A DNA stretch of 63,064 bases, filler included, from Collodictyon triciliatum (lineage: Eukaryota): the NCBI GenBank assembly GCA_043381765.1. It is 5 parts of 5 records of this genome, joined end to end, with 100 filler letters (N's around TTAATTAATTAA, not from the genome) between each part and the next. Parts side by side here need not be neighbours in the genome. Positions count along the whole stretch, not along the records: positions 1 to 17,664 come from JBHJMP010001430.1; 4 more parts are not named here. One strand, written 5' to 3'. The notes beneath the pieces were generated by a model, which saw only the letters and a program-made list of their open reading frames with translations, was not told the origin of the DNA and searched no databases. Shown one piece after another: positions 1 to 53,282 of this stretch; position 1 is the stretch's first letter, and the number at the start of each line of letters is the position of its first letter. The translations under genes and the position numbers were made by a program.

Positions 1-1513
1 CAAGAGCAGCGCATCTCCAAACCCCGAAAGAAATCCCCCCTTAAACTACCCATTCAGACTGACGTGAATATGGTTAACATAGGAGGCAACAAGGCAGTCT
101 TTGTTACTTATCCGAAAGGATACTCCAAAGCGAAGGCAACACAAGAACCAGCGCCCACCAAAGATAGTCCGTTTATCCTTTCCCAGCCTGTCGCACCGAG
201 AACCAAGGAGCAAGAGCAAACACCACAAGTCGAATCCAAGCTTGGAACTTCACACACCAATGACAGTCCGAGCAAGCAGAGCGTATGTTTCTAAAACCAC
301 AAACGCGTATCCATACTCCAGTTAAGCAAAGTCAATTGCCGGCTACGCATGTTTCGGAACCAGGGGACGGTCAAGCGCCACTTCCGATAATACCAGACAA
401 ACAACGATGTATCGCTTTTTGTCTGAATCTCCAAACAAGAATCGCAAGGAAAGTGACCCGTTGTCCCCTCAAAAGACTCATCCTGTGGAATGAAATAGGA
501 TGTAAACCCTGTCTGAGATAGACGGTTGAATGGTCTCGTTGGAATCGATTTGAGAAGTAACTGCCATGTGCGTACTTTCATCGACCTGACAACTTTATCC
601 GCTCTTCTGTCAGTCTCGAATACAACCAGAAATCGCGTTGGAGCTCAACCTCGGGTAGAATAGACTGCGTGTGAAAACACTATCTCTCTTTTGTGTTTTC
701 TTTTTCTTTCCTTCCAAAACACAAAAAATCCAACCACACAATCCGGGGTTTCCACTGTCTTGTCCACAGCTCATTTGTGTGCGATAGGCAGAGGTAATTA
801 CTCAATTCTATTATTCTCTCCATTAAATATTACAAAAATGCAAAATAATAATATCATCAGTAAATCTTATGCAATTCACCACCCACACTTTATGTAATAT
901 ATTATGATTTGTAATTTGTCTATGTGATTTAATCAAATACCTCAGTTTGATGCACCTCCTACAGAATATTCAACCCCTGCTTCCCACACAACCAATCAAC
1001 CAGTTGGAACGCCCACCTGACCAATTCGCTATCACTGATTTCTTTCCAGTGCTAGCCTCTCCACAGTAGCCTTCTCTGCCAGTCTATGTGCCGTCCTCTG
1101 TGTCCCTTCCACGCCGCGCCATCTGCTTCCATTTTCGATGGTGACCGTCTGCCCAATAATTACACCCCAACTACTTATACACCACAGGCCTTTCTCACTA
1201 TATAATCTTCCTCCACTAAAAAAAAAGAAGATAAAAAATGAAAAAGAATCCCCTCCAACTTCGGTACTTGCGTAAGTACCAAACCTTTTCTCCTCATCCC
1301 ACGCCATACATGGCCCGTCTATGCCATATCCGGCCTCTCCGCAACACGTGCTGTCTCATACGACCTTAACCCAGACCCAGCCTCAATCCTGGCCCTGTAA
1401 GGCACAGATATAGGCACATGATATTCATACTATGGTGGGTGTCCCTAAATAACTAAAAAAATAAAAAAAAATAATCCCCAACAAGTCCCAACAATCGATG
1501 AAATGTTTTTTTT

Positions 1514-3177
1514 TTGTACGCTTTAAAGGCAGTCAGAGTAGTTTCACAGGATAGCCCCACAAGTTTAAAACATCCAGATACAAGTAAAGACATGATGGTT
1601 TTGCATCTCAATGATTTTCGATTCCTTTTGTCCCGAGAAGAACGCTTTCCGTTGGTTGGATTGTCTCATTTATTATGGTACTTGGCGAAGCAAATGTTAA
1701 CAACTTATTTTAATAACATTAAGTAACATTTTGTAAAGAGGTTACTGCGCTTTATAAATAAAACAGTACCTAAGGATCAGAATATGACGGAAGCTATTAA
1801 AAAGGCAGGGTTACGAAAGTTAAAAAAAACCATCTTCAAGAAACTCGAAATACCGGAAATATACAAAGAATGGGCTACAACGCACTTGCATCATATCATT
1901 CCCAGCGATATTGTAAAAACTATCGAATATGACGCCAAAGTCAGTCCAAACAAGTACAATACCATCTCTGATTTACATGAATCGCATTTTTGAGGACATT
2001 GGAACCAACCCAGTTCAACCAATCCCTATAAGAACTAACTATACATCATGTCATATTACTCTAGATACTGCATGTTTGATAGGTATTAGTATTATCTGGA
2101 AAACCATCATTACTGAAGAATATATAAGGATGCAAAGAGACACTGTGGAATAAAATCTTTGAAATGAAGAAGAGGGTCTTTCATCAAAGAGACTACAATT
2201 TCAAATACATGATACAAACAGACGGCTTGGCGGTGTCATTACTATTTGAAAAGAAAGGTATTTCAAATTCAAAAATCCAAATACAATAAAAAAAAAACCC
2301 CCAAGAATATGTTTATATAGATGACCTTTCCGAAGAGCAGTTATCTTTATTAGCGACAAAAAAATAGTTGGAGTGGACGCAGGCAAGTTTAATTCGGTTT
2401 ACATGATGGATGAGACAGGTAAGAAATTACGTTACACGGCACACCAAAAAAGAAGTGATAGCAAATCTCTTAAAAATTACAAAATACTCTTGTGCAAGAA
2501 AAGAAGTACAATTATTCAGGGATATGCATGACACCAGATATAGAAAGTGCTGTTTCTTTTTTCCCCTGACTTTTGAAGTGAATCAGCGGTTTGAGACATT
2601 AAGAGTATCTTTTAATCGATTTAGAGACAGAACTGTGTAAACATAATTCATGCACGGTCGATTATGAAAAATTTCGAGAATATGTACCTATGACATCAAG
2701 ATACCAGATAGAATTTTCCAGATTTTATAAACACGTAACTTTTCGAAAGATGAGATGGAGACAGTATGTTGATACAAAAAGAAGTGAAGAATTGTTTATG
2801 GACCGAATCGAAAAGACGTTTGGCAAGGATGTTGTACTGGCATATGGAGACTGGAGCAGAAAATCTCCGATGAAACCATTTTATGCCAATAATCGGAAGA
2901 GGATTACGAAAAATACTATCCAAACATTTTGAAACAGTTCGTGTAGATGAATTTAGAACCTCTAAGATGTGCTGCAACTGCGAAAAAGAGCTGGAATATA
3001 TGAAACTGAAAGGAAGTTCAAAAAAGTGTGTATAGATGTCTCATATGTAAAGAATGCAATCGCTCAGAAAGCAAACAAAGTGTATTCTTGACAAGGGACT
3101 TTAACAGCGCTAATAATATACTCAAGAAAGTTCTTTTATTCCTTCAAAATATGCTTACGCCCTCCTCTAAAAAATAG
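1514..3177 (+). pseudogene. Decayed Fanzor1 (TnpB/IS200-IS605-derived RNA-guided RuvC endonuclease), 5'-truncated, with an in-frame stop and several frameshifts
   Basis: Joining frames by hand gives YLAKQMLTTYFNNIK*HFVKRLLRFINKT ... YDAKVSPNKY/LIYMNRIFE..QPIPIRTNYTSCHITLDTACLI ... LWNKIF..YMIQTDGLAVSLLF ... IVGVDAGK (RuvC-I Asp, GAC 2376-2378) ..LRYTAHQ.. NSCTVDYEKFREY ..FRKMRWRQY..RIEKTFG..VLAYGDWS..GRGLRKILSKHF..VDEFRTSKMCCNC (RuvC-II Glu 2949-2951 plus CxxC) .. CLICKEC .. TRDFNSANNI (RuvC-III Asp 3097-3099). The motif order matches Fanzor1. TAA at 1724-1726; frameshifts near 1958, 2090, 2290-2360, 2880 and 3025. Confidence 0.9.
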
Positions 3178-3182
3178 ACTGT

Positions 3183-3340
3183 CGAATCTTTCCAGGCAAC
3201 CTTCACCACTACGCAATCTTCGTGAATAAAATGGTGAGACCTTGGATACTAGCGCACCAGGTCAACCAATCGAAAGATTTGTGTATCCCTTCTGGTACAA
3301 GATATAAATGTCAAGTGTAACTAAACGGAGAAAGCAAAAA
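3183..3340 (+). ncRNA. Candidate Fanzor omegaRNA scaffold / element right end
   Basis: Starts just after the Fanzor stop. AATCTTTC (3185-3192) pairs perfectly with GAAAGATT (3272-3279). Inside it, CCAGG (3192-3196) can pair with CCTTGG (3240-3245) with one bulge, and TCACCA (3203-3208) pairs with TGGTGA (3232-3237). A further hairpin TGTA(T)CC..GGTACA lies at 3282-3299. This position is where TnpB/Fanzor guide RNAs are encoded. Boundaries are approximate. Confidence 0.5.
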
Positions 3341-3474
3341 AAAATTTTTTTGTTTCGTTTCATTTCTGATTTATCATACATTTCTCTCATAGACTTATCC
3401 GTTTACTTCTTTGCTTATTTGTTAATTATTTCTGTCAATTTGTTTATCCATTTATTTATTCATTCATTAGTTTT

Positions 3475-5753
3475 TCACAACTTCCGGCGGATGATGAACT
3501 CGGACATGACATTGAGCAATTCAGTGATCTCCTAGTTATGGCTACCTTCAGTTGTTTGACAGCACTGACTTTAAAAAACGAATATATAATTGTTTGCTGG
3601 AATTTTGCGTTTGCTTTTGACTTTTCTCTTTATTATTATTATCATTATTTGTTTGTTTGTTTGTTTGTTTGTTTGTTTGTTTGTTTGTTTCTTTGTTTGT
3701 TTCTTTGTTTGTTTGTTTGTTTGTTTGTTTGTTTGTTTGTTTGTTTGTTTGTTTCTTTGTTTCTTTGTTTCTTTGTTTGTTTCTTTGTTTGTTTCTTTGT
3801 TTGTTTATTTGTTTGTTGGTCTAGAATGTGGGCGATTGGATAATTATTTCTGTTCCAATCACTTCACAGACAAACCTTTCTGCCCATGTTGTTCAAGTGC
3901 GACTTTGGAAGATTGGAGATGCGCAGGAACGGCAAGTCAGTCTTCTTGATTGATTCATACAAATACCGCTCCGAGTAAGGAAGAGTATACCGTTGGTCGA
4001 GTCTGTACCGATGTTATGAAGGTTATGTTTTTGAGGGGGTTTGGTTGAAGAGGCGATAATTTTAAAAAAAATGAGTTAAGAATCAGCGCGGTGAATGAGA
4101 TGAAATACAAATTTCCAGTTCCATATTCTGAAGATATCATTCAATATATTATTCTTCTGGTTCATTCGCAACTTTTATCGTATAATCAAGAAAAATAAAC
4201 CATCTTGGAACATATCTAAGTTAACTAAACCCATATTTCACCCCACCTTGTACCAACTATAATCTTAACCACATCAGGAGACATGTTTGAGTTTTTTATC
4301 TGTTTGAAGGAATGCTTTTTAAAAGATTTTTGTTCTGTACGGAGCTTATGTGAATAACAGCGCGATTTATACAAAAAAAAATTCACTTGGTCGTTATGAA
4401 ATTGATTTTTCAGTCCAGTTTGATGCACAGTTTTTCGTTTACAATCATTTCACTGGTATTTTTGACACGTGTATGAAAAGCATACTAGTTTCGGAAGTGA
4501 ATCGAGACTATCTTTATCTTGCAGTGAAAAGCAGAATAAGCAAATATCCACATCATAAAGCATCGACTTGCGTAAATATTCGTAACGTTGCAGTGCAAGA
4601 GTTCCACAGTCCCAGAAGTGAAATCGAAGAAGGGACACCTGCCCATCCATCGAAAGCTAGTATGGTTCGAATGAAAAATGTTGATTATTATTTTTTAACT
4701 AAAAAAGGGAAATTAATTTATGAAAAGTGTATTTTGATACTCTATATAGCACAAAACTATTAATTCAAAAATGAATATTCAAATAATCATGATATGGAAA
4801 CTTATAACAAAAAAGAATTTCAAAACAAAGTCTCGACGGAGTGAGACTTGGACTAAGAATGAATAAATAGAAAAAAGACACTATAATTTCAGAATGAAGT
4901 AAAAAATAAACAAAAACATGAATCAATGTATTACTTTCACGGGATGGTGACATATCGTCGTTTGCAGACCAGCTGTTTCTGTATGCGATTCAGGCACATC
5001 TGTAAGGAAAAATGGTAATCAACTATTATTGAATATTTGCTTATGTTTGTTGATGTGCTTGTTTAAGATTGATGTGTTTGGAATGGAATCAAGCATCAAC
5101 TTTGCTATTTTCATCGTTTCATGACCTGAGGAAGGAAGCATATGATTAAATGGGCACCATATCCGCAGCAATTCAGGATGGTAGATGTTTTTCCTACTGT
5201 CGCTTTTCCCAGGACAGCAACTTTCACAGATATACTCTTTCCATGCAAATCGGGATACACGTCGATTGACTTGCATAAAAGAGCTGATTTTCATTTTAAG
5301 TTTTGTTTTTGTAATGCTTGTGCACTTACACTTGCGTAAATTTTTGTTTTGATTTGATTTGATTTGATTTGATTTGATTTGTTATTGGCTGACGTATTAT
5401 CATTAAAAGATGAGAAGGTTCGTAATAAAAAAAAAAAAAACAATAACCATTTAAAAAATGATGATACTTTTACTTTGACATCCCCCAGTGTAATATGATA
5501 GGGAGGATGAATAAAAACCTGAGGCTGTGGGTTGTAATTTGTTGAACAACACGGCATACTCTTCCGATTCAGACCATGCGAGATCGATCTTCCCATGGAC
5601 TTTGTAGTCTGCCAGAATATCTCTGTCTTCCGCTTCTTCCTTGGAAAGATGCGTGATTGTTTCCTGCGCATGGGCGATGTCGTCCTCCTCCAGGTCCTGG
5701 ATCATCGCAGGTGTGCGCTGTGCATTACCCTGCAGAGCGGCAAACGAGGACAT
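3475..5753 (-). CDS. RSG1: RSG1/CPLANE2-like atypical small GTPase (CPLANE ciliogenesis complex), multi-exon
   Basis: Exons give IDLAWSESEEYAVLFNKL; VKVAVLGKATVGKTSTILNCCG (P-loop); DVPESHTETAGLQTTICHHPVK; GQVSLLRFHFWDCGTLALQRYEYLRKSMLYDVDICLFCFSLQDKDSLDSLP; SPDVVKIIVGTR; TDLPFLRISNLP; EITELLNVMSEFIIRRKL*. These are collinear with RSG1 as I recall it (W-x-ES, HETTGIQTT, FRFEFWDCG, PGVVRMVIGSK, LPLLRV). GT-AG boundaries are visible. Confidence 0.8.
3648..3817. repeat. (TTTG)n microsatellite, degenerate, inside the last RSG1 intron
   Basis: Tandem TTTG/TTTC units seen directly; they produce the spurious FVCL ORFs. Confidence 0.95.
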
Positions 5754-6110
5754 GACTCAAACGAAAGGCTCGAAGAACAGGGATTCGGGTTTATCTTATG
5801 GCCGGGAAAGACCAGCGCAAGAAAACTGGTGGAGAAAGAACAAGGGAGGTATCCGCAAACCATCGCTCTTGGATGAACTTAACCGGGTTGTGCTGTGTCT
5901 GGCTGTGTTTATGTGCGCATTTTTTTAGTTTCTTTTCAGTTTTTTTTTTTTTTTTAATTCATGTTTTTTTAAGTTTTTTTATTTTTATTTTTTAGCTCCT
6001 TTCCAGTTTTTTGGTTTTCTGGTTTTTTGTTTAATGCAGAACGAACTCGACGAATGAATTCCAATGACTATTTTCTTTATTTTCCCTCCTTTGTCAATAG
6101 ATAAGGCGCG

Positions 6111-13988: not shown

Positions 13989-16815
13989 TTATCGCGGACG
14001 ATATGACGAAGTCATCCCTGGTCTTCCTGTGCTCGGTTTCGATGCTGCAGCGCTTGTGGTGGATGAGAGACCGCCTTTAGAGGGTTGTTTGGTAAGCGAC
14101 GCATTCGCCGGCGGCTCGCGTGTTGTTTGCCTCTGTGTGCTTGAGTTGAACTGGGCAGCGCTCGGTGCAGGGTTTGCGCTGGGCTTTGCTTTCATGTTGA
14201 GCTTGGCGCATATTGGAATGTGTCGGTCGGCTGCATTTTCATTGAACTTGCGGCCGCAATGCTGTGGATGGGTGGTTACGTTTGTGTTTATCGTATTATG
14301 ATTGGATTATTTTTTTTCTGTTATCTGTTTTTTTTTTCTTTTCCTTTTTTCTTTTTCTTTTTTTGATTGTGGTTCATTGCAGGATACTTACAGGGCAGGC
14401 TTGCAGGCCGTCGTCGATGGGTATGGTTGTGCCAGCTGGCATGGACGGGTCGGACAAGGTCATGGGAGCCTGGCCTTTTGCAGAGCGAATAGCGTTGATG
14501 AAGGCCATATGGTCTCGCTTCCACTTGGGGATTTTTGCTGGGAGGTCGCCTTTATTCTCCGGCGCACTTTTTGCTGCCTTCTGCTCTCTCTTTTGGGCGT
14601 TCTGTTCATGAGACATAATTCCATAATCATTTACAAAATGCAATATTACAGTTTTTTTTTTTTTTTTGGATTTAGTTTCAATTAAAACATTACTATATAA
14701 TAAGTGAGGAATAGTATGGATTTGGTGAATTTATTCGATTAAAATATCCACAAAGTATGCTCTTCCTTTCTCCATTTTCCTTTTTTTTAACCATTAAATG
14801 AATCATATGACAGTGGAATATTGCAATGATTAAACAAAAAGTACTAGCAGAAAATGTTGGGAGAAAAGAAGCAAACCTTGTACAATTGAGCAGCCTCACC
14901 TTCGAGGCGATGTTTTGTCGAGTCAAATACTTTGCGCTCCTTCGTCGACACTTTGTTGCAAATCCGCTGATGAACTTTGATTCGATCTGTAGCAAACTTC
15001 CGCCCGCATATCTGACATTCTGTCGTATCTGTATTACCCCCTGCGTATGGGTCTTGGTCGTCATCAGCCTCATTACTGTAACATCAGTATTAAATAAAAT
15101 GTTATGTGCTTTTCTTTTCTTGTGCTAAAAAAAAAAAAGTAATAAATAGCATCAATTACTTTCATATATATCAGAAATGGAAAAAATACGTTTCATCCTC
15201 GTAATCATACTCTTGCGGCTCCGGCTCCGGCTGAGACCGCTGTGATGTGCGGGACGACGGGCGATATGCTTCTTCTTGCCGAGCTGCAGGCTTCTGCGGC
15301 GTGTTTCTGTTTGTATTGGGCGCTTGATTTGTTCTTGTTCCAGACGTATTTCTGCTCTGTAGCTGATAGCTTGGCTGAAAAGTGCTCTGCTCGCTATCAT
15401 CCTGGTCATCTCCCTGGTCTCCCGACTGATAAGGCTGTGCGTATTGATAGTATTGCGCTTTGTACTTTGAATCCTGCGCTTGTTGGCGTTGAGAGGGAGA
15501 CGGAGACGGAGACGGAACGCGTTGCTGAGTATTTGTGGTTGGATTTGTAGTTAGGATTTGCTTCTGTGAGCTGGACCTCTGGAGCACAGGCTGCGATGGA
15601 CCGCTAGGCTTTGAGCGAGATGCATCTCTGTCCTGCATGGACCGTTGTAACGGATCCGAGTTGTGTGGGTTGGTGGGAGCCTCATTTCCTCGGCGTGTCT
15701 CGGGCACTCTCTGCCTGTTGCGATTGGAGTCGAAGCCGTCGGGCTGGAAATTCTCCTCGTAGTCGTGTTGTGGCTGTCCGCGCTGGGTGTCTAAAATGAT
15801 TTGGTTCCAGTGATGCGGATGCACCTGATTGCTGTAGCATATAAATGATAAGTAAATGATAGTACAACAAACCGCGAGATGATGTCTGATATGCGCTTTG
15901 ATTGTAGCTAGACGCGGTGGGCTGTCGTTTTGTGTGGGGTTTCAATGAGGAGCTTTGGTCATCGTCTTCATCATCTGGGTACGACCGGAATGTGGGGGAC
16001 GGGGCTGCAGACGGCTTTGCTGCTTTGGCAGAGACTGCAAGCGGGGCAGCTTTCGATGTTTTGGATTCGGCTTCTCTTTGGGCCAGCTGGATGAATCTCT
16101 TTGGATTTGATTCGCCCTTTCCAGCAAAGAATTTCATCACTGTCTTCATCAGAGAGTAATGGTGCTCAAGAAGAAACATGAGCAGCTCTTTGCATAGGTC
16201 GTTGGACATTTTACGGATGTCGGATATGGATAGGTCTTCGTCGATGGAGCTTTCAGCCAAGTTTGTGTCATCGCCATGCGTATTTGAATGTGCTCCACGT
16301 GTGTTTGCATATGCAGATGCAGATGGATTTGGTCGGCTTGTTTGTCCCCGGGCAGAGTTTGGGGCGTATCCGTAACCATGTGTATTTGCATTTGAGTTTG
16401 AACTAGCATTTGCATTACCACTTGTGTAGCTTTGTGATGAATACGACGATTGCGGTTGCGGTTGCGGTTGCGGTTGCTTCAGCTCTGGATTGCGAGTGTT
16501 GCGAGATGCTGTTGCTGCTGTTGATGCCGCGAAAGTTCCGCCGCCGTAGTTGTGATTGTCTCGGTCGCCTCCATATGAGTTTCGGTCTTGCATCGGTGAT
16601 GAGGCCCGTTTGTAAGTGTGCGCTTCGTTCTGGTTGCTACGAAGGGTTGCTGTTGCGTTTGTGGTTGTGGTTGTGCTGCTTGGGACTGAATTTGTTTGGC
16701 GGGCAGCAAACTGGCTTTGGATTGGGCGATCCTCTTGTGGATTTGGAGCGTAGTTGTATGATGCAGCGGGTTCGGGCGAGGGTTCAGATTCGGTCCAGGT
16801 TGTCTGTTTATTTGC

Positions 16816-16897
<82 letters not shown>

Positions 16898-17270
16898 ATA
16901 TGTAAATAAATATGTAAATAAATAAATATGTAAAGATAAGTGCATAAGCGAAAAATAGAGTGAATAGATTCTTATACTTTACGGCCTCGATTCGCATTAG
17001 GAGGTGCTTCGGACTCTGCTACAATGGGTAAGTTCATCAAAAGTTGTTTGCGTTTGACCTGATATTTGCGCGGAAAAGAAAAGCAACATCGTTGTGCGAC
17101 AGACTGTCAATCAGAGAGAGTTGTGAAAGTATTGAGACTCTGGTGCAAAGGGCTGCTTCCTTACCAACTGGATGCTTTCGCTCGTCTTTCAGCGCCTTTG
17201 CTCGCTCCATCTGCTCTTTGCGTTTCTGGGCCCAGTTCTGGGCTGCTGAACTTCCTCGACTGGCGTACAT
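13989..17270 (-). CDS. ZC2HC1-like protein (two zf-C2HC_2 fingers, long Q/S/P-rich linker)
   Basis: Finger 1 CQICGRKFATDRIKVHQRICNK..RKVFDSTKHRL; conserved PKWKRDHMAFINAIRSAK; finger 2 split by an intron, LQACP/HCGRKFNENAADRHIPICAK; N-terminus MYASRGSSAAQNWAQKRKEQMERAKALK. Confidence 0.85.
16819..16930. repeat. (TAAA)n microsatellite, intronic
   Basis: Tandem TAAA seen directly. Confidence 0.95.
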
Positions 17271-17664: not shown

Positions 17665-17764
17665 NNNNNNNNNNNNNNNNNNNNNNNNNNNNNNNNNNNN
17701 NNNNNNNNTTAATTAATTAANNNNNNNNNNNNNNNNNNNNNNNNNNNNNNNNNNNNNNNNNNNN
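17665..17764. other. Artificial contig spacer N-TTAATTAATTAA-N
   Basis: Six-frame-stop 12-mer at 17709-17720 flanked by N runs. Confidence 0.97.
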
Positions 17765-18720
17765 AAATAGGCAAAGGATGTCTTCCCAGCCCCGGTTTCT
17801 CCAAGAATGAGAAGAACGGACTGTTTCTTTTGCTCGAAAAACTCCCACACACGGCTCTGTGCATCAAAGTACTGTGCGCTTTTTGGGTAGGAACGACCAA
17901 AGAGTGGGATGTACTTTTCGGCGCGGTCGTGGACTGATTTTGCATCGATGAAGGACTCGCGGATCCGCTCGAGCTTTGGTTGGACAGTGATTCTTGGACT
18001 GACGAGCGCGGGTGCTGGTGCTGGTGCTGGTGCTGGTGCAGATTCAAGTACGTGTGCAGGCGTCGGGATTTCCTTTCCAGATGTCTTGGTGGATGAATGA
18101 AGGTTTGATTCGGCTGTGGTTGCAGGCATTTGGATTTCGTCCTGGGTATCATCGCCAGAGTCATGCGCAGATAGAAGCGGTGCGGAGGCGTCGGCAGATC
18201 CGTCATGCGTATCAGTCTGTGCAGGTGTGAGTATGCTGGATGGGATCCGGGGCCTTGTAGGGGAGGCCATTTGCGGCTGCGATTGGGATTGGGAGTGGGA
18301 GTGGGATTGGGAGTGGGATTGATTTTCGCCAGGGCGTGGGTGAGCCTCCTCAGCAGGCATTTTGCCGAAGCACTGACCACCTCCATCGAGAGAGGGCACC
18401 CACGAGACAACGAAGTCGGGTGAGGGACAGACATGCAGGCGAAAGTCTCTGCCGAAGCTGTGAAGGCGGCTGCGAGTCCGAGTCCGAGTGCGACGTGACT
18501 TTTCCGGAAGGCCTGCGAGCGGACAGAACAAAGCGAGTTGTGGTGGAGACGAGTGGCCGGGTGGGAAGCACACAGTGGCGGGATGGGAAGCGCCAAAAGC
18601 GTCGATCACGGTGACCCGTTCGATGCGCCTCGTCGGAGAAGTCGACACGTGAAAGCGGACCGTGTACTGATCGGTGGCGTCCGGGAACTCGTATGCTTGT
18701 GATTCAGGGAGCGGCCGCAT
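17765..18720 (-). CDS. 5' part of a NACHT/STAND P-loop NTPase (NLR-like), truncated by the contig end
   Basis: KYIPLFG..FDAQSRVWEFFEQKKQSVLLILGETGAGKTSFAY: a pre-P-loop YIPL motif and Walker A typical of NACHT-type STAND NTPases. It is preceded by a ~110-aa globular leader ending LDGGGQCFGK and a low-complexity linker. Confidence 0.7.
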
Positions 18721-18876
18721 CTTGTCGGGGCGTGGCTGTTGAGGAGGGGAGGCACGGTGTCCTGCTTGTTAGTCTGGTGTCTTTTATGCGGCTGTCGCTG
18801 TCTTTTGAGGGGGGAATCTTGTAAAGTGAAGGAACAGCTGGTTGCGAGCATAAGAGGGGTATTCTAAGTGGGCTTC

Positions 18877-19190
18877 TCTTTTTTCTCTCTTTTTTTCTCT
18901 TTTTTCTCTTTTTTTTCTCTTTTTTTTCTCTTTTTTTTCTCTTTTTTTCTCTTTTTTCTCTTTTTTTCTCTTTTTTCTCTTTTTTTCTCTTTTTTTCTCT
19001 TTTTTTCTCTTTTTTTCTCTTTTTTTCTCTTTTTTTCTCTTTTTTATCTTTTTTATCTTTTTTATCTTTTTTATCTTTTTTATCTTTTTTATCTTTTTTA
19101 TCTTTTTTATCTTTTTTATCTTTTTTATCTTTTTTACCTTTTTTTCTTTTATCTCTTTTTTCTCTTTTTTTTCTTTTATCTCTTTTTTCT
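18877..19190. repeat. Polypyrimidine tandem repeats (T6-7CTC)n and (TTTTTTATC)n
   Basis: Seen directly; they explain the K/E-rich and F/S/L-rich spurious ORFs. Confidence 0.9.
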
Positions 19191-19627
19191 CTTCGATCCG
19201 ATCAGAATATGCCTGGGATCTGCAGAATCTGATTGACCTCGTGTCAAGAAAACTTCGTGGAAAAGCAGAATGCGCTTGGAAACGCGTTTTCATGCTATCT
19301 ATAACAGATGCAAATAGTATGATATAATAAATATGGTATTAATGGAACAATTTCTTGTTCTACCATACCAACTTAGGAAGATGTCAGCATTGCTGTTTAG
19401 GTTCGAGGCGGACTGGTGGTGCTCAGGAGATTCGAATAAAATGCAGAAACAAAGGCCTTTTGCAATAGAGTCACATAGACGGAACAGTTGGGCGACGCTG
19501 ACACAGCACGCTTTCCAAGAGATGTGATGCCATTCATTTAACTTCATTTCATATTTTTTCTTTTATATAATAAATCTGTGTATCTTTATGCTTGTTGTTT
19601 GTTTGTATAAATCGGGGTAGAGCTGCC

Positions 19628-27870: not shown

Positions 27871-30061
27871 GTAAAAAAACCCAAAATTGAGGGTAAATAC
27901 GTCACCAATCCCATGAAGCAAGGAACTAATCTCCTAAATTAAGCTTCTTTATTATAAAAAATAAGTAAGATGTGGATGCAATTGAAGAGTAAAAAAAATC
28001 AAACGAGAAGTACTACTCTGTCTTCAGAAGAGATTAAGAGTAATACGGACGCTTTTTGCTCTTTTTTAATTTTTTTTTTTAAGTTGCCCTTACAATATGA
28101 GCCCTAATTGTGAGATGCACATAACTGTATCCCGATAGAAAAAACTGGCTGATTTGGGTATCAATAAGGTGGGTAATAGACTCACCCCAAATGTACTCAA
28201 CCCAAAAGCCTTGTTATGTGGTTATAAAAAAATAGTAGCCCAATCATCATCCTCTTTACGCCAGTATCTTATGATACGTGGAGAAGTAGTGTAGTCTTGG
28301 CATGGGGAATGTTTATTGGTAATAACATAATCTTCTACCGGAAAGTAGACAGCGCAGAGCGAAGAAAATGCAGTGGGTTGGGTTAATGTCAATAGAGCAC
28401 GGACATCCACTTTTTCAGTTTTTATGGCAGCTTCCTCAAGGTTTCAGCAAACTAAACATCATCCAGTTGGAAACAAACCTTAAAAGGCTTCTCTGCGAGG
28501 TAGTGCATTCGAATGCACCCATTTACGCATTACAGTTCCGATACCTACGTAAACCTTTGAAATATATTGAAATATCATTATTATGATGAAGAGACAGTCG
28601 TGAATAGAAAAATATATGCGAGGGAAAACAGGGATGCATCACAGGACTACGTCGCATATGCAGCTATTCTGACCAAGTCATATGCACCGTTGTAAGGCAA
28701 CTTCCATAGGTGGGCTTCGTAGTGTGAGAGTGAACTATCGAGAACACGTTCTTTCGTAAAGCAGGCGTGGATTCTGGGTAATGGGTAGCCATGAACCATA
28801 TTCAACTTTCGGTCTCCGATTAGCAGGAAGTAGGCTTTCTGTTTATTTTCTTCGGGGTAGAATGTGGGGGCTTCCAGTTATTATTTGTTTGATTTTGGGG
28901 ACTCTATCGCCTCGTGTGTTAGGTGCTACACATTCTTCGCCTTATTGGTGACATTCGCAGCCCTGACCGTAGATGACGAATGTTTCATGGTTCATCACAC
29001 ATCCCCTTGGCACTCGACATATTTTAAGGCACCCACGCAGCCTCTTTTGATATTATCGTTATGGGCTCAATGTTATATATCTATTTCTGGATTTTATAAG
29101 AATAATGTTTCCAGGTGCTTGTGTGCTGCAGCCGATTTAGTATTGCGTCAGACTCTCGCAGAATATTGGGTTGGACTTCAACGCTTTTGGACGAATCCAA
29201 TGACCGCCAACATTGCGCGTCAACACCTTGTGGAGCGTTTGTGGGTAGTGAGTTTTTTTTTTTTTACTCTAAAAATCTTACCTGTTGGACCTGTCTCGAC
29301 AATCTTTCATTCAACCACCAGGCAAGTAGCTCCAAAGTAGGTGATGATGTGGGTGGGATAGAATATTCATACATATTAAAAAATGAAATAAAAGACAAAG
29401 CCCAGCCCATCGCCAAGTCTCAAGTGGGCACGTAGCAAACGAATTATTTTATATATGTACCTCTCTCACAAAAATACAGCATCACTCCCAGGGCGTCATG
29501 GATTACAATCAGGGAAATCAGTTGGTCTTCACGTGGTTTCCATCCTCCTCTCTTTATCTCTTGTTTTCTTGTTTTTTAACCACATGATTATTTTATCATC
29601 AAAGTTGTCCACTCAGGTTTTTTTATCACCTTTATTCTGACTCTTAAGTGTGGGTGGAATGCTTCTGGATTGCTGGTTGTGATATCGGAAAAAGAACTGT
29701 GCTAAAAAATCCGATAAAAAGGGAAAGGCATCGAAATGAAAAGAAAATCAAGAAGGAAAAAAGGCGAACAGGCCGTGAATTGCTTGGCTGGCGGGTATGT
29801 AGTAAAAAAAAAAAAACTCGCCAAGTGTTGAAGCATACGAGATGCTGACTTTTCCTGCCGACTTAGTGATGACCTAAATTCCAACTATAAGAATTAAAGC
29901 GATGGTGAAAAAAAAAAAAAATAAAGCAATTTTATTTATTGTAAGCTTTGATACCAGGCCGGACCCTATCACTTTAACCAGCTACATACAGAAAAGGATG
30001 TCCAATTCGTGGTTACTGATGGCCATTTTGTAAAAGAAGCAATTAAGGCTTTTTTCTTTTA

Positions 30062-30231: not shown

Positions 30232-32589
30232 GTGTTCGTAAAGCACCGGTTTAGGAATGAGTTCATAATCAGGATTGCTCTGCTCATTCCAGCAAGGTAG
30301 AAGTGTGATGCTACGAGACGCCCTCTTTATAGTCGATTGTTCTGCTTTGTTGTGAATGCACAAGCGGCCGAGAGCAGTCAGAACAGTAATTTCAGCAGGA
30401 AGTTCTTCAATCTGCGAGAATGGAAAAATGTTTTTGAGTTCATGACAGTGGATTCACTTTAATATCATATGTGTATTTAACAAACCGGATTATCACAGAC
30501 ATCCAACTGCACGAGGCCAGATAAACGTGTTATTTCCGATGACAGTGACAACAGCTGATTTTGAGAAACATCAAGGCGAGTGAGGACTGTCAGGTTTGAT
30601 ATTTGAGCAGGTACTGATGATATCTGTAAATCGTGATTATTAAGAATAAAATTAAGAAATGATGAAATTAATGCAAACATTAAAATGATATTTAATACAA
30701 ATTATTTTCTAAAAATAAGAGTCAATGAAAAAAGGAAATAAAAGTAGCAAACTTTGTTTTTTGATAAGTCCAGGTACGACAAGTTTGTAAGAGCGAAGCA
30801 TACATCCGGGAAAGACGTAAGCTGTAAGCGAACAGTGAATTATAATACAATCAATATTGAAGTGCTAGTGGTGGTTAATATAAAGTTATTAATATATTAT
30901 TACTTCGTTTGAATGGGCGTATAGTTTCTTCAGTCCTACTAAATGCTTAAACGAATCAGGAATCTGGGAGAGCCTCATATCACCCATCCATAGCGAGGTT
31001 GCGTGTTGGATTCCATGATTGTAAGGGGTGTACCGTACATTCATATTTTGAATTTCTTCCAATTCTTGAAAAATATTAGAGGTTAATGGGTATCCAGGAT
31101 GGTCAACTTGATTTGGTTGCAGGTGGTCATTTATGAATTGGGATGCAAACGAAAGTTCTTGTTCAGAAATTGAATGGGTCGAGTAGATATCTGGCTGCTC
31201 AATCTTAGATATTATGATTCCGCTAAGCTTCAAGGCCTTCACTTTCTCAAGTAATCTTTTTGACGATTCGTCTTTCTTTTTCTGCAGATGAACCACCAAT
31301 TCAGAATAAAATAATTCCCCAACCTTCTTTTTTGAAAGATTGGAAATGCTGCCAGCGTCTTCATTTGATAATTCAACAAATGCAATTATGTCATCTGGAG
31401 ATATGTAATACGTCTCAATCATCATTCTTTCATTCAGCCTGTCTTGAATTTCTTCAAATCTTTCCCAGCTTTGGTTTGAAATCTTATCGCTCAATTTTAA
31501 AAAGCCATGCTCTCGAAGCCACTCCACAAATTCACCCTGGTACATATCAGCCAAAGGAGCATATTTAATTGGAAGTAATTCGTTCATCATTTTTTGAGAA
31601 AGCATCTGTTGGCCAGATTTCAATTCATCCAAGTATATACAGACTGGATTAAGAGATGGTCGGAGCTTGTAGTTTTGCTTCCAGCACGCTTTGATAAGGT
31701 GGTTAAGCTCACTAGTGGTTTCTTTCGGTATTTCAGGTCGTAAACCCCTGATGACGAAACCTTGTGTCTCTTTTTCATTCATAAAAGGCTCGACGCCAGA
31801 AAACATGTACCAAACGAGCATTCCCAAAGCATACACATTACTTGGTTCTCCTCGATGCCCCTGATTCACTCCATCCTCGCCATACATTTCCGGATTATCA
31901 CCATAGTGAGGCGCGCCAACAACATCATGGATTTCTGGTGCTTGCCAATTGGCAGTTCCGCCTTTGTTATAACCAAATCTCGTCGGTAATCCTGAACCGA
32001 CTTTATCTACATCACGGTGACTTACTATCCCAAAATCCACAATTTTTGCCGTTTCATCCACAATCATAACGTTGTCGGCTTTCAAATCTTCGTGATACAG
32101 GTGTTTGGAATGCATGAAATTAAGACCTTGACACAATTGTTTTGTGTAAGAAATAATTTGAGGTAATGAAGGCTTCATGTTTTTCTTCTCCAACATCGCT
32201 TTCAATGAAATACCTGCATCCTCCATAATCATATAAAAGTTGTCCTCTTTACGATGCACACCAAATATTTTGACTATATTTTCACATTCCTTGCATTCAT
32301 GTAGAAACTTGCTTTCAAAAATGAGCGATTCAATTACCTCGCTGAGGGTCTGTTTTCCCATTTGTTTGATGGTTTGAATTTTCACCACGGCTCTTTTTCC
32401 TTTGTGTGTTGTTGTGTAAACTCGCCCATATGTCCCTTTTGCGAGATACCCTGACAGTTCTATTTTTTCATCAGCCCATAGGTCTTTTAGATCTTTGTTA
32501 ATTGAATCCAGCTCAAGAGTTCCTTCAGCAGATTGTGGCTTTTTTGTCTTATTCGCTCTCTTCAGCGAGGCAAATCTCTTTGAAAATCC

Positions 32590-32684
<95 letters not shown>

Positions 32685-35300
32685 AAAGTTTACTGGTATG
32701 TAACAACATTCAATAAAATTATCACTAATCTAAAATTTGACCTGGTTTGAATAGATTGAGTAAAAATAAACCTTGTTCCATGTAGACTCTTCCTTGCTTT
32801 ACTGCATTTGCTTCCAGGTGATGGCTCATGGTACAAGCCTTCAATTCTGATTCATCTATCTTTGCCGAAGTTTGAATGTATCCGTCTAATCCATGACGTT
32901 GGCATTCAGGGCATTTAAATCGGTATGCTTTCACAAAATTTGGTCGAATCAATGATATTTGCTTGATGAAGGTTGAAAGGATATCAAAAATCCTGACGAA
33001 TCTATCGCCACTCTCATCAACCTCATTTTCGTATTTTCTAATCTTGACTGAAATGCTCTTTTGGTGGATTTGGTACAAAACAATCAAACCGTCTCCAGGA
33101 AGCAGTTGAATTTCATCTGTTCCTGTTTTGTATGAAGCATTCAAGTGTATGAACGCTACATCTCTGAAAAACTGGTCGTCATACTGTACTCCAGCTTTTA
33201 CCTCTTTTGTCAAACGAAGCGCTTGTATGATAACATTGCTTTTATCACAGAGCTGGATTTCGCCATTGGTCATTATTTCTACAGTGGTTTCAGCAATACA
33301 GTTTGACTCTGGGTTTTCATTCCATAAGGCTTTGATATTTTGGCACTCTTCCATCAGTGAGGGAAAGGCGATGCATTCTCTGTTGAATTGAATCCCAAGG
33401 CCGAAATGGTCAAAGATTCGAAGAATTGTATTGAACACATGTTCGTCTAGTTCCGCATTCAGTTCTTGTTTAATTTGGTCCTTTAACTTGCTCAACAAAA
33501 TGATGCCACTTGTGTCCTTCCCGATGCCCTTGAAACTGAAGACACAGCGGAATATGTTGATGAGAAATAGTGGGTCCAAAAATAAAATGTCCTTTGCATT
33601 TTCTAGGGATGAATACCAAACAACTGAGCCAAGGTCGTGGAGGAATTTGAGAGCACTTTCGCACCCATTTCTGTCCATACCCAGCTGCTTCTCGGCAAAA
33701 TCGTAAGTGTCTTGGATTCGTTCGTACTTAGTATATTGGCCTTTTGAATTTAGATAGTCTTTCAGCCCGATATATGTTTTTGGAACGTCCTTGTTCATGT
33801 TATCAAGCCTCATCATTCCTTTATATATCTCTTTCTTCAAATCTGATATTTTTGTTCCGCTCTTGTTGCTCACTTTTAACTCTGTATTGATGAAGATATG
33901 GCGAGCCTTTTCATCCAGTTTCTGCTCATTTTCATTTTTAATTCGCTCGATATCTTGGTGTATCTCCCGACTAAAACTAGGATTCTCGCAATCTTGGCGA
34001 GTCCCAACAATTATAATATTTGAGCCAGGTGCGAAGTCATCAAGCATTTTGACCCAGCGGCTGAGGTTATTCTTCTCCTTGCCTTGGTCGAGTCTGTAGA
34101 GAATCAAAACAAGAGCGCCTGATGATAAAAAGAACGGGTGTGTTACTTGGAACTCTTCTTGTCCCCCAAAGTCCCATATCTGCATAGATAACTTGGTCTT
34201 GAAGAATCCACTCATCATCGACTCATCAATGTCGACATGTGCAATACCGTCTGTTGCAATCCTCGGCTGGTCAATTGTACTCTTGAAAAAATTGTATTTT
34301 TGTGTAATTGATTTGATAAGGGTTGTTTTTCCTGCCTCTCCCTCGCCCAATAGCAGGAGTCTTGCTTGGGTCCATTTTACAACACCAATCATAGAGTTTT
34401 CAAGGAAATCAAAGACGGCTTCAGACCCATTTCTGAGGACGTTTTCTGGTATATTTTTGATAGGATTTGCTTGGACGTTCAGTCCATCTCGTAGCCCTTT
34501 AAGCTTGGCGATGAACGAAGGTACAATGCAAATCTAAAAAATAAAAAGATGTCGATGAATCGGGGTTTCTACTAGTAAGATGTGACTTTATGGAGATCGC
34601 TCACAAAATAAGAAAAGGAAAAGGAAAAGGAAANNNNNNNNNNNNNNNNNNNNNNNNNNNNNNNNNNNNNNNNNNNNNNNNNNNNNNNNNNNNNNNNNNN
34701 NNNNNNNNNNNNNNNNNNNNNNNNNNNNNNNNNNNNNNNNNNNNNNNNNNNNNNNNNNNNNNNNNNNNNNNNNNNTTTACTTGGCATAATAAAAAAACTC
34801 ATTTACTTGGCATGAAAGCAGGTTATGAATTGACAATGGTCAATACAATTAATCAAATATGATTTCAGTATCAAACCGTATTGTGACGGGAGTGTACGAG
34901 TAGAGCTAGGATGCTCGACCGCCAAAAGGTCTCGAAGTGAGGCGATAACCTAAACGGAAAATATATAAAAACTTTTTTTTTAAAAAAAAAAGAAGAGCGC
35001 ATATTTATCACTTATTTTAAGTAATATGTTTTGGGGAAGAAGAGAGAAATGTGAATTAATCTGAGGAAATTATCCCACCAATGGCTGCTTCGTAGAGACA
35101 GAGTTAACTACGCTAAGGGGTATCCATCCTTTCGGGTGAATGCTAGCACAGTAAATGATTCTGGTGTAGTTTGTGTTTGCAAATGGCTCGATGATATATC
35201 CACCGAATAGAGTCTCGCCTCTTACAAATCCGCTGAATTCAGGTACAGATGGATGTTGTGTTGAAATGACGGCGATGTGATACGAATTTGTCTATGGAAT
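30232..35300 (-). CDS. Roco protein: LRR cap - Roc GTPase - COR - protein kinase - SAM-like - C-terminal LRRs
   Basis: LNVQANPIKNIPENVLRNGSEAVFDFL (pre-Roc); GEGEAGKT, ATDGI, WDFGGQEEFQVTHPFF, VGTRQD, VSNK (Roc); VPKTY..ALKFLHDLGSVVWY..LDPLFL (COR); LAKGTYGRVY, AVVK, YHEDLKADN, DFG, GTANWQAPE (kinase); then LRRs such as LTNLSYLDLSKNK and LTRLDVSQNQL. Both ends are approximate: the 5' exons above 34534 are obscured by an N gap. Confidence 0.88.
32594..32681. repeat. (AG)n microsatellite in the Roco COR-kinase intron
   Basis: Seen directly. Confidence 0.95.
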
Positions 35301-53049: not shown

Positions 53050-53182
53050 TGAGAAAGAGAAAAGAGAAAGAGAAAATGAAAGAGAAAGAGAAAGAGAAAG
53101 AGAAAGAGAAAGAGAAAGAGAAAGAGAAAGAGAAAGAGAAAGAGAAAGAGAAAGAGAAAGAGAAAGAGAAAGAGAAAGAGAA
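53050..53182. repeat. (AGAAAG)n repeat at a contig end
   Basis: Seen directly. Confidence 0.95.
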
Positions 53183-53282
53183 NNNNNNNNNNNNNNNNNN
53201 NNNNNNNNNNNNNNNNNNNNNNNNNNTTAATTAATTAANNNNNNNNNNNNNNNNNNNNNNNNNNNNNNNNNNNNNNNNNNNN
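53183..53282. other. Artificial contig spacer N-TTAATTAATTAA-N
   Basis: 12-mer at 53227-53238 between N runs. Confidence 0.97.

What the first reader, a model, noticed from the sequence alone, without database searches (positions are those of the whole stretch)
1514..3340. Hidden Fanzor1 RNA-guided nuclease element in a protist genome
Seen: a frameshifted reading frame with RuvC-I IVGVDAG, RuvC-II VDEFRTSK, two CxxC pairs, RuvC-III RDFNSA and the upstream blocks LRFINK, HITLDT, IQTDG and YGDWS. The ORF track breaks it into uninformative pieces. Established: this architecture defines Fanzor, the eukaryotic TnpB-derived OMEGA nuclease. Inference: all three catalytic residues survive, so decay may be fairly recent and intact or consensus-reconstructable copies may exist elsewhere in this genome. 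No partner transposase is visible, and the N-terminus and left end appear lost.
Basis: partly seen in the sequence, partly recalled or inferred. Interest (0 to 1): 0.85.

Follow-up and report, generated by a model that had tools for sequence, protein, structure and literature searches.

The report
Dead, truncated Fanzor1 transposon gene copy
This stretch is a broken, front-truncated copy of a Fanzor1 gene (a eukaryotic RNA-guided DNA cutter carried by jumping genes), an ordinary relic of a known kind whose closest intact relatives sit in giant-virus genomes.

Summary
Window 1485-3213 (+) aligns collinearly to residues 69-642 of a 648-aa metagenomic protein, P0002 (59.8% identity over 567 codons). 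The alignment needs 9 frameshifts and crosses 3 in-frame TAA stops. A profile of 38 intact relatives matches 8 collinear frame pieces, and only those among 1965 pieces of the window. The same profile matches the solved Spizellomyces Fanzor1 end to end at E 2e-57. The window's D (2376), E (2949) and D (3097) fall on SpuFz1 D383, E541 and D606.

The copy is dead. Its first ~68 codons and everything upstream are missing. Other copies in public runs continue with N-terminal coding sequence where the window breaks off at ~1480. Those copies and three database fragments lack at least five of the window's lesions.

Full-length relatives lie mostly on giant-virus contigs. There they sit in TA-flanked elements with inverted-repeat ends, often beside a DDE transposase. 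This Mariner-plus-Fanzor1 architecture was described in 2013. No transposase, left end or second copy is in the window. This is a new member of a known kind and of low interest.

The parts
1485..3213 (+). Fanzor1 pseudogene: homology to residues 69-642 of the 648-aa relative P0002, read through 9 frameshifts and 3 in-frame stops
   Evidence: Frameshift-aware alignment gives 567 codons with 339 identical. The frame-corrected reading scores E 1.5e-193 against profile A1, positions 74-605 of 630.
1479..1481 (+). 5' truncation point of this copy
   Evidence: Contigs of other copies (X4, two loose-end groups) stop matching the window before 1479/1481. They continue with sequence that translates like P0002 residues ~55-63. 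No piece of the window matches profile positions 1-73.
2376..2378 (+). RuvC-I aspartate codon (GAC) in IVGVDAG
   Evidence: It aligns to the invariant D of GxDPGK in A1 and to SpuFz1 D383.
2949..2951 (+). Catalytic glutamate codon (GAA) in VDEFRTSK
   Evidence: It aligns to the invariant E of A1 and to SpuFz1 E541. Piece 2874-3035 aligns to IDEFRTSSFC of PpFz1.
2970..3057 (+). Zinc-finger cysteines: CCNC (2970-2981) and CLICKEC (3037-3057), separated by the frameshift at 3027
   Evidence: Read from the sequence. These cysteines are invariant in A1. There is a weak Pfam Cas12f1-like TNB hit, E 0.0023 and 18.5 bits, below the 26.3-bit cutoff.
3097..3099 (+). RuvC-III aspartate codon (GAC) in TRDFNSA
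   Evidence: It aligns to the invariant D of A1 and to SpuFz1 D606.
1724..1726 (+). In-frame TAA, private to this copy
   Evidence: It aligns to E148 of P0002. Every laid contig covering the site reads G at 1724, giving GAA: X1 1, X2 1, X3 10, X4 9 contigs.
2125..2127 (+). In-frame TAA
   Evidence: It aligns to E281 of P0002. Its state in other copies was not listed.
2287..2289 (+). In-frame TAA in a poorly conserved linker
2876..2876 (+). One-base insertion (frameshift), an example of the 9 frameshifts
   Evidence: The base is left out in X1 (1 contig), X3 (5) and X4 (1). Fragment P0123 reads through the site in one frame.
3214..3319 (+). 3' non-coding tail of the element, with a possible degraded right terminal repeat at 3304-3317 and TA at 3318-3319
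   Evidence: Depth of other copies in X3 falls from 40 to 3.7 to 0 across bins 3209-3275, 3276-3342 and 3343-3400. The family end motif matches at edit distance 3 of 17, ending at 3319. That ties with 3 other places in the window, so it is only suggestive. Profile and covariance-model searches do not find it.

Best explanation
This is a dead, 5'-truncated copy of a Fanzor1 gene, the eukaryotic/viral TnpB-derived RNA-guided nuclease, left by a Tc1/mariner-type DNA transposon. Shown: the reading frame is homologous to Fanzor1 from residue ~69 to the C-terminus. It keeps the three catalytic acidic residues and the zinc-finger cysteines. It is interrupted by 9 frameshifts and 3 stop codons, and it lacks its start, the left end and any transposase. 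Shown for the family: intact relatives lie inside elements bounded by 24-nt terminal inverted repeats and TA dinucleotides. They occur alone (about 2.35-2.45 kb) or with a divergently oriented DDE transposase (about 3.3-4.9 kb), mostly on giant-virus contigs. Inferred from work on SpuFz1 and other Fanzors: the ancestral protein bound an omega-RNA transcribed from the element's 3' end. It cut DNA matching the guide beside a short adjacent motif, and this helped the element persist. In the window nothing of that can still work, because no protein can be made. The copy belongs to a multi-copy family, since hundreds of diverged contigs of it occur in public runs, some without the window's lesions.
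For: Motifs and frames. Collinear frameshift-aware alignment to P0002 at 59.8% identity. Eight of 1965 window pieces match profile A1, and the frame-corrected reading scores E 1.5e-193. P0002 hits Fanzor1 structures 9cer at 2.1e-28, 9cf0 at 2.7e-24 and 8gkh at 3.7e-23. Profile A1 hits 8gkh at 2e-57, 9cf0 at 3.8e-57 and 9cer at 2.2e-44. The window's own pieces hit the same entries. Catalytic residues D383/E541/D606 of SpuFz1: passages of PMC10432273. Truncation and private lesions: (T>G at 1724 in all covering contigs; one base left out at 1959, 2610 and 2876; loose ends before 1479/1481). P0123 and P0124 read through the sites at 2876 and at 2558/2611. Family architecture: 507 of 553 pattern matches in viral contigs encode relatives. 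A DDE_3+HTH neighbour occurs in 37 of 160 loci. Inverted ends occur in 61 of 112 loci, and TA precedes the left end in 58 of 60. Multi-copy status: 326 contigs laid in X3, 69 in X4, 14 in X1 and 10 in X2.
Against: Pfam gives only a sub-threshold hit for one of seven pieces. The family's conserved right-end block is not found in the window by nhmmer or by a covariance model. The 3' tail shows no unusual folding, z -0.47. The proposed right end is therefore weak. No terminal inverted repeats flank the copy. That the other copies come from the same organism is not shown. No run holds more than 12% of the sampled words, and the genome is not held. The Tc1/mariner association is shown only for relatives that are about 40% identical, not for the window's own lineage.
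Confidence: 0.93

Rival explanations
1. The gene is intact in the organism, and the frameshifts are assembly or sequencing errors.
For: All 9 frameshifts are 1-base gains or losses, the typical form of sequencing error. Other copies in runs lack several of them.
Against: Three in-frame TAA stops are substitutions, not indels. The 5' end is missing. Other genes in the same window keep open frames of 551-672 codons, so the error rate is low. X1 contigs laid at 1962-2118 and 2096-2248 show 0 gaps and 2 and 1 other letters. They therefore carry the window's frameshift near 2082, although that run may be the assembly's own source.
Confidence: 0.03
2. It is a working gene whose frame changes are introns or programmed recoding.
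For: Fanzor genes in eukaryotes often carry introns (PMC10530073, passages).
Against: The alignment to P0002 is continuous across each shift, with no extra DNA to splice out. For example...SPMK/HFMPIIG needs one base removed. Stops fall inside conserved blocks, as at NNIK*HFVKR. There is no start and no N-terminus. Other copies differ by single bases at exactly these sites.
Confidence: 0.01
3. The fragment is a remnant of an integrated giant-virus segment rather than of a transposon resident in the host genome. This does not exclude the main reading.
For: Nearly all full-length relatives recovered with DNA lie on giant-virus contigs or MAGs. Bao and Jurka note virus-derived Fanzor elements in eukaryotic contigs (PMC3627910, passages).
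Against: I compared 1021 ORFs of at least 100 aa from the 160 related loci, flanks included, with the window. Every one of the 874 matching segments lies inside 1400-3300. The neighbouring window genes are eukaryotic types: Roc-COR, protein kinase, SET/MYND and GT92. The family is present as hundreds of diverged contigs in one small run, which fits a genomic repeat better. The test is limited to the genes that happen to flank Fanzor in those loci.
Confidence: 0.1
4. It is a bacterial TnpB or a Fanzor2, for example from contamination or an IS607-type element.
For: The only Pfam family touched is the Cas12f1-like/TnpB TNB domain.
Against: The only significant PDB matches, of the pieces and of the profile, are Fanzor1 entries. 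No TnpB, Cas12 or Fanzor2 chain appears at the thresholds used. The relatives' length of about 620-650 aa and their long N-terminal half match Fanzor1. The flanks are eukaryotic.
Confidence: 0.01

Closest known systems
Fanzor1 nucleases with solved structures: Spizellomyces punctatus SpuFz1 (8gkh), Parasitella parasitica Fz1 (9cf0), Guillardia theta Fz1 (9cer)
   Same: The family profile aligns end to end at E 2e-57 to 2e-44. The same catalytic D/E/D positions are kept, including the glutamate in the D-E-x-x-T-S block (E541 of SpuFz1). The GDWS block and the zinc-finger cysteines are also shared.
   Different: The window copy is a pseudogene without its first ~68 codons. Sequence identity to the solved proteins is low. 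Of the window's own pieces, the best reaches E 5.3e-05 and the rest are weaker, 0.0034 to 0.068. No omega-RNA or TAM is known for this lineage.
Tc1/mariner-borne Fanzor1 elements of large DNA viruses and protists (PGv-1, PUl-1, PUl-4; Bao and Jurka 2013, PMC3627910)
   Same: The window's relatives sit in TA-flanked elements with terminal inverted repeats. They occur with a DDE transposase or as Fanzor-only derivatives sharing the same ends. The paper describes exactly this (passages read).
   Different: The window shows only a weak remnant of the right end. It has no left end, no transposase and no checkable TA duplication. I could not compare sequences with the named elements because they were not at hand.
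Bacterial/archaeal TnpB (IS200/IS605, IS607) and Cas12f
   Same: They share a split RuvC fold with a zinc ribbon. The only Pfam family touched is Cas12f1-like TNB.
   Different: The Pfam hits are below the curated cutoff. The protein is about 200 aa longer. The catalytic glutamate sits in the Fanzor position. No TnpB chain is matched in the PDB searches.
Fanzor2 (e.g. mimivirus ApmFz2)
   Same: Also an RNA-guided TnpB descendant found in giant viruses (abstract of PMC11832414 in the listing).
   Different: No Fanzor2 chain appears among the PDB matches. The relatives are associated with a DDE transposase and TA/TIR ends, not with IS607-type serine recombinases.

Membership tests
Fanzor1 | Full-length sequence homology to established Fanzor1 proteins | tested here: met
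   Profile A1, to which the window's frame-corrected reading scores E 1.5e-193, matches 8gkh, 9cf0 and 9cer at 2e-57 to 2e-44. Window pieces hit the same entries directly.
Fanzor1 | RuvC catalytic triad, with the glutamate in the D-E-x-x-T-S block before the zinc finger | tested here: met
   D at 2376, E at 2949 and D at 3097 align to SpuFz1 D383, E541 and D606. I derived the chain-to-protein offset of 394 by counting in the alignment, and it fits all three residues plus N385.
Fanzor1 | C4-type zinc finger between RuvC-II and RuvC-III | tested here: met
   CCNC and CLICKEC are present and these cysteines are invariant in A1. The Pfam TNB domain is only sub-threshold.
Fanzor1 | Intact open reading frame giving a ~600-650 aa protein | tested here: not met
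   There are 9 frameshifts, 3 in-frame stops, and residues 1-68 are absent. It is a pseudogene of the family, not a working member.
Fanzor1 | Omega-RNA encoded at the 3' end of the element and guide-dependent DNA cleavage | tested here: inconclusive
   Relatives have a conserved 3' non-coding block with a hairpin kept by compensatory changes, 3 of 3 pairs. The window does not match it. Folding gives z -0.47 and Rfam gives nothing. Cleavage is not testable with these tools.
Fanzor1 | Eukaryotic or eukaryotic-virus host | tested here: met
   The window carries Roc-COR, protein kinase, SET/MYND and GT92 genes and scaffold gaps. Relatives lie on giant-virus contigs. No taxon was established.
Tc1/mariner-type (TA-inserting, DDE) transposon carrying Fanzor1 | Terminal inverted repeats flanked by a TA duplication | tested here: inconclusive
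   This is met in relatives. Sixty-one of 112 loci have an inverted copy of the 24-nt right end upstream (40 with 0 mismatches). TA precedes the left end in 58 of 60; TA at the right end was imposed by my pattern. In the window there is no left end and only a weak right-end resemblance.
Tc1/mariner-type (TA-inserting, DDE) transposon carrying Fanzor1 | DDE transposase in the element | tested here: not met
   A DDE_3+HTH protein lies beside Fanzor in 37 of 160 related loci. In the window only chance-level matches appear, E 5.9 or worse. The region where it would lie is lost.
TnpB (IS200/IS605) | Pfam OrfB/TNB domains above threshold and a ~400 aa protein next to a Y1 or serine TnpA | tested here: not met
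   PF07282 scores 18.5 bits against a cutoff of 26.3. Relatives are 562-661 aa. The neighbouring transposase in relatives is of DDE type.

The most novel reading that the evidence does not exclude
The window's copy could be one decayed member of a still-active, high-copy Mariner-type Fanzor1 family living in a freshwater microbial eukaryote. That family would have been exchanged fairly recently with giant viruses. Intact natural copies with their omega-RNA would then exist in that genome and would represent an uncharacterised lineage of eukaryote-adapted RNA-guided nuclease, about 40% identical to the giant-virus forms.
Probability: 0.35. Interest if true: 0.35.

Novelty: new member of a known kind. 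Interest (0 to 1): 0.2.

Why it matters
It matters little on its own. Fanzor1 genes, their decayed copies, their presence in protists and giant viruses, and their capture by Mariner-type transposons are all in print (PMC3627910, PMC10432273, PMC10530073). The finding does show that a reader without tools can recognise a heavily frameshifted RNA-guided nuclease gene. It also flags a genome and a set of runs in which less damaged copies of a little-sampled Fanzor1 lineage could be collected. The family-level observation is a useful starting point for defining that clade's omega-RNA: hundreds of giant-virus loci share near-perfect TA-flanked inverted ends and a conserved 3' block.

Tried and rejected

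Pfam on the seven pieces gave only a sub-threshold TNB hit. The local Pfam copy lacks PF26935, the family precomputed for all relatives. I do not know its name.

A single-protein scan of viral contigs with P0002 found nothing. The alignment-based scan worked. The metagenome scan did not recover the contigs of P0001 or P0002, and its best locus is 56-59% identical to P0001. So no DNA of the closest relatives was available for comparing ends.

Terminal inverted repeats around the window copy were not found. Rfam gave no match in 1-6000 at E<=1. The folding z-score of 3150-3330 is -0.47.

The family right-end block was sought in the window with nhmmer on the whole window, nhmmer on 3150-3400 alone and covariance model R1 with filters off. 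None gave a hit at the element. The best hit anywhere, 29494-29611 at E 0.68, is not significant. The consensus end motif with up to 3 mismatches gave 0 matches. An inverted copy of the window's own putative end was not found.

Sequencing runs: no RNA holder is listed and no run holds more than 12% of the sampled words. X3 is only guessed to be RNA, so I say nothing about expression. In one search the state of the lesions at 1503, 2082, 2125, 2287, 2350 and 2493 in other copies was not listed, and 3027 is unresolved (450 and 58 rows were not shown).

The intron, recoding, assembly-error and TnpB/Fanzor2 readings were considered and rejected, as set out under the rival explanations. Supplementary tables of the Fanzor papers were closed. 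They may already list this organism's Fanzor copies.
Full report
**Observation.** The region was read directly and all stop-to-stop frames were listed.
- LRFINK in 1727-1993
- HITLDT in 1917-2153
- IQTDG in 2128-2289
- IVGVDAG in 2325-2531
- YGDWS in 2603-2932
- VDEFRTSK and CCNC in 2874-3035
- CLICKEC and RDFNSA in 3010-3177

Pfam on the seven pieces gave little. One piece touched PF07282 (Cas12f1-like TNB) at E 0.0023 and 18.5 bits, under the 26.3-bit cutoff.

**Relatives.**
- The 109-aa piece 2603-2932 found one longer protein, P0001, a 223-aa metagenome fragment with 70% identity.
- P0001 in turn found 259 proteins at E<=0.01 among 795 candidates; the 120 listed range from 404 to 664 aa, most about 620-660 aa. 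All carry a precomputed PF26935 label, which my Pfam copy does not hold and whose name I do not know.
- The closest is P0002 (648 aa).
- tblastn of seven of these proteins against the window placed every match at E<=1e-3 inside 1490-3219, so there is one copy in the 63 kb.

**Anatomy of the copy.** A frameshift-aware alignment of P0002 to window 1201-3400 (my script) gave one collinear path.
- Window 1485-3213 corresponds to residues 69-642, with 567 aligned codons and 339 identical (59.8%).
- There are 9 frameshifts, near 1503, 1958, 2082, 2350, 2493, 2558, 2611, 2876 and 3027.
- There are 3 in-frame TAA stops, at 1724, 2125 and 2287, plus TAG at 3175 close to the C-terminus.
- The shifts are single-base gains or losses with no extra DNA between the aligned residues, so they are not introns.
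- Other genes in the window keep open frames of 551-672 codons under the standard code. Neither a variant genetic code nor a generally error-ridden assembly explains the breaks.

**Statistical support.** I built an HMM from an alignment of 38 intact relatives (A1) and ran it against all 1965 six-frame pieces of at least 20 aa in the window.
- Eight pieces scored, at E 1.2e-36 to 5.4e-10. All lie in 1502-3174, in the order of the profile.
- Nothing else scored at E<=10.
- The frame-corrected reading scored E 1.5e-193 over profile positions 74-605 of 630.

**Family.**
- P0002 matches three solved Fanzor1 proteins: Guillardia theta 9cer at 2.1e-28, Parasitella parasitica 9cf0 at 2.7e-24 and Spizellomyces punctatus 8gkh at 3.7e-23. 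Nothing else matches below E 0.38.
- Profile A1 matches the same three at 2e-57, 3.8e-57 and 2.2e-44, covering SpuFz1 over profile positions 4-609. They are the only matches at E<=0.01.
- The window's own pieces point the same way. Piece 2874-3035 has PpFz1 as its only match (5.3e-05), aligned over IDEFRTSSFCPKCE.
- For piece 2603-2932 the three best matches are the three Fanzor1 entries, at 0.0034, 0.029 and 0.068.

**Catalytic residues.** Saito et al. (PMC10432273; passages read) give the metal-binding residues of SpuFz1 as D383, N385, E541 and D606.
- In the alignment the tagged chain is offset by 394. This is my count, and it fits all four residues.
- The three acidic residues align to the invariant D of GxDPGK, the E of NEFRTSK and the D of TRDxNS in the profile.
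- In the window these are D at 2376-2378, E at 2949-2951 and D at 3097-3099.
Jiang et al. speak of a rearranged RuvC site (abstract of PMC10530073).

**Truncation and other copies.** No genome is held for this window, so I used public runs.
- No run holds more than 12% of the sampled words of 1400-3400.
- Laying the contigs of four runs at 80% likeness gave 326 contigs in X3, 69 in X4, 14 in X1 and 10 in X2. Their likeness ranges from under 90% to over 99%. This is a family of many diverged copies.
- At 1724 every covering contig reads G (X1 1, X2 1, X3 10, X4 9), which turns the window's TAA into GAA, the glutamate of P0002.
- One base is left out at 1959 (X3 2, X4 1), at 2610 (X2 1, X3 3) and at 2876 (X1 1, X3 5, X4 1). 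Those are three of the window's frameshift sites.
- At 1479/1481, contigs of X4 stop matching the window. They continue upstream with sequence that translates like P0002 residues ~55-63. The window copy is therefore cut off there, while other copies go on into the N-terminal coding region.
- Depth of the X3 copies falls from 40 to 3.7 to 0 over 3209-3275, 3276-3342 and 3343-3400. This places the family's right limit near 3280-3340.
- A few contigs are nearly identical to the window: X1 at 1962-2118 and 2096-2248, and X2 at 3193-3400 running into the flank. These may be the same locus, and possibly the assembly's own source.
- The states of the other lesions were not listed.

Separately, three short database fragments of 68-84 aa are 74-86% identical to piece 2603-2932.
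- P0123 reads through the 2876 site in one frame.
- P0124 reads through the 2558 and 2611 sites in one frame.
- P0122 has a break of its own.

In all, at least 5 of the 12 lesions are absent from other copies. No complete intact copy from this organism was seen.

**What the relatives look like.** A scan of viral contigs with A1 found 553 pattern matches, of which 507 encode relatives, and 80 loci were kept. Many are giant-virus MAGs or contigs of up to 289 kb. A metagenome scan found 473 relatives among 596 matches, and again 80 were kept. Several loci in the two sets are the same contig twice, for example L001/L081 and L004/L090, so counts over the 160 loci are not all independent.
- A DDE_3 endonuclease with HTH domains lies beside the Fanzor gene in 37 of 160 loci. 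Of its 38 ORFs, 33 are upstream on the opposite strand. In the closest viral relatives it is only 70-340 nt away.
- Downstream of the ORF the loci share a conserved non-coding block ending in ...GTTTTAAATGTNCAAAGGTG-TA, after which they diverge completely. A 48-nt probe from L082 found it in 75 of 134 loci with enough downstream DNA.
- A hairpin inside the block keeps its 3 predicted pairs through compensatory changes.
- The last 24 nt recur inverted upstream in 61 of 112 loci: 40 with 0 mismatches, 13 with 1, 6 with 2, and one each with 5 and 6.
- TA precedes the left end in 58 of the 60 cases with flank. TA at the right end was part of my search pattern.
- Element lengths fall mainly at about 2.35-2.45 kb (Fanzor only) and about 3.3-4.9 kb (with transposase).

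This is the Tc1/mariner-borne Fanzor1 architecture that Bao and Jurka described in 2013, including in a giant virus and as Fanzor-only derivatives with TA duplications (PMC3627910; passages read).

**The window against that architecture.**
- No transposase is present. All 874 matching segments from the 1021 ORFs of the 160 loci fall inside 1400-3300. The DDE protein gives only chance-level hits, E 5.9 or worse.
- There are no inverted repeats around the copy.
- The conserved 3' block is not detected by nhmmer or by a covariance model with filters off.
- The tail folds no better than shuffles, z -0.47, and Rfam finds nothing.
- By eye, 3304-3319 resembles the family's terminal motif followed by TA. 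Measured, it is edit distance 3 over 17 letters, tied with three other places in the window. I call it suggestive and no more.
- The frame-corrected product is 59% identical to P0002 and only 39-42% identical to the viral proteins. A diverged end is therefore expected.

**Context.** Neighbouring open frames carry Roc plus COR-A, a protein kinase, GT92, and weak SET and MYND signals. The window also has scaffold gaps. It is eukaryotic nuclear DNA. I did not establish the taxon.

Mechanistically the copy does nothing now. By analogy with SpuFz1 and other tested Fanzors (PMC10432273, PMC10530073), its ancestor was an omega-RNA-guided nuclease riding a TA-inserting DDE transposon. That step is inferred, not shown here.

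Fanzor1 genes, their viral relatives, their Mariner carriers and their partial copies are all described. For partial copies, Saito et al. report partial Fanzor genes among the S. punctatus loci (PMC10432273). The finding is therefore a new member of a known kind, and of low interest. The open point worth a follow-up is whether less damaged or intact copies of this lineage exist in the source genome.

Noticed in passing
L001-L160 (e.g. L001:1641-4948, L015:2529-4909, L088:403-3703): The giant-virus and metagenome relatives form TA-flanked elements with near-perfect 24-nt terminal inverted repeats (CACCTTTG.ACATTTAAAACGCC...). They occur as Fanzor-only units of about 2.35-2.45 kb or with a divergent DDE_3/HTH transposase at about 3.3-4.9 kb. 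A conserved 3' non-coding block with a covarying hairpin precedes the right end and is a candidate omega-RNA scaffold.
   Followed up: partly
L027:4756-5010, L017:5985-6239, L031:3815-4069 and others: Extra solitary copies of the terminal motif lie near some viral Fanzor elements. They may be ghost or miniature derivatives, or neighbouring elements.
   Followed up: no
L037:5594-6241; L006:456-2888: Other recurrent neighbours of the viral Fanzor genes are an HNH endonuclease (5 loci) and an 811-aa protein with a DUF4379 zinc finger and a weak SIR2-like signal (18 loci).
   Followed up: no
window 29494-29611 (+): This is the best, but non-significant, match in the window to the family's right-end model: CM at 15.4 bits and E 0.68, nhmmer at E 0.77. 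It is probably chance.
   Followed up: no
window 3640-3820; also 44536-45099 and 16700-16971: Long (GTTT)n/(CTTT)n-type microsatellites lie just downstream of the element and recur elsewhere in the window.
   Followed up: no
window 30889-34533 (-): Adjacent open frames carry Roc plus COR-A (32725-34533) and a protein kinase domain (30889-32589). This looks like a ROCO-type kinase gene, possibly one gene with an intron.
   Followed up: no
window 18704-19338: A long AAG/CTT-rich low-complexity tract reads as K/E-rich repeats in several frames. Runs of N (scaffold gaps) lie near 17710-17760 and 53180-53230.
   Followed up: no
window 2558 and 2611: Two of the frameshifts (-1 and +1) lie 53 nt apart and cancel each other. 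Only the stretch between them is out of frame. Fragment P0124 from another copy has neither.
   Followed up: partly
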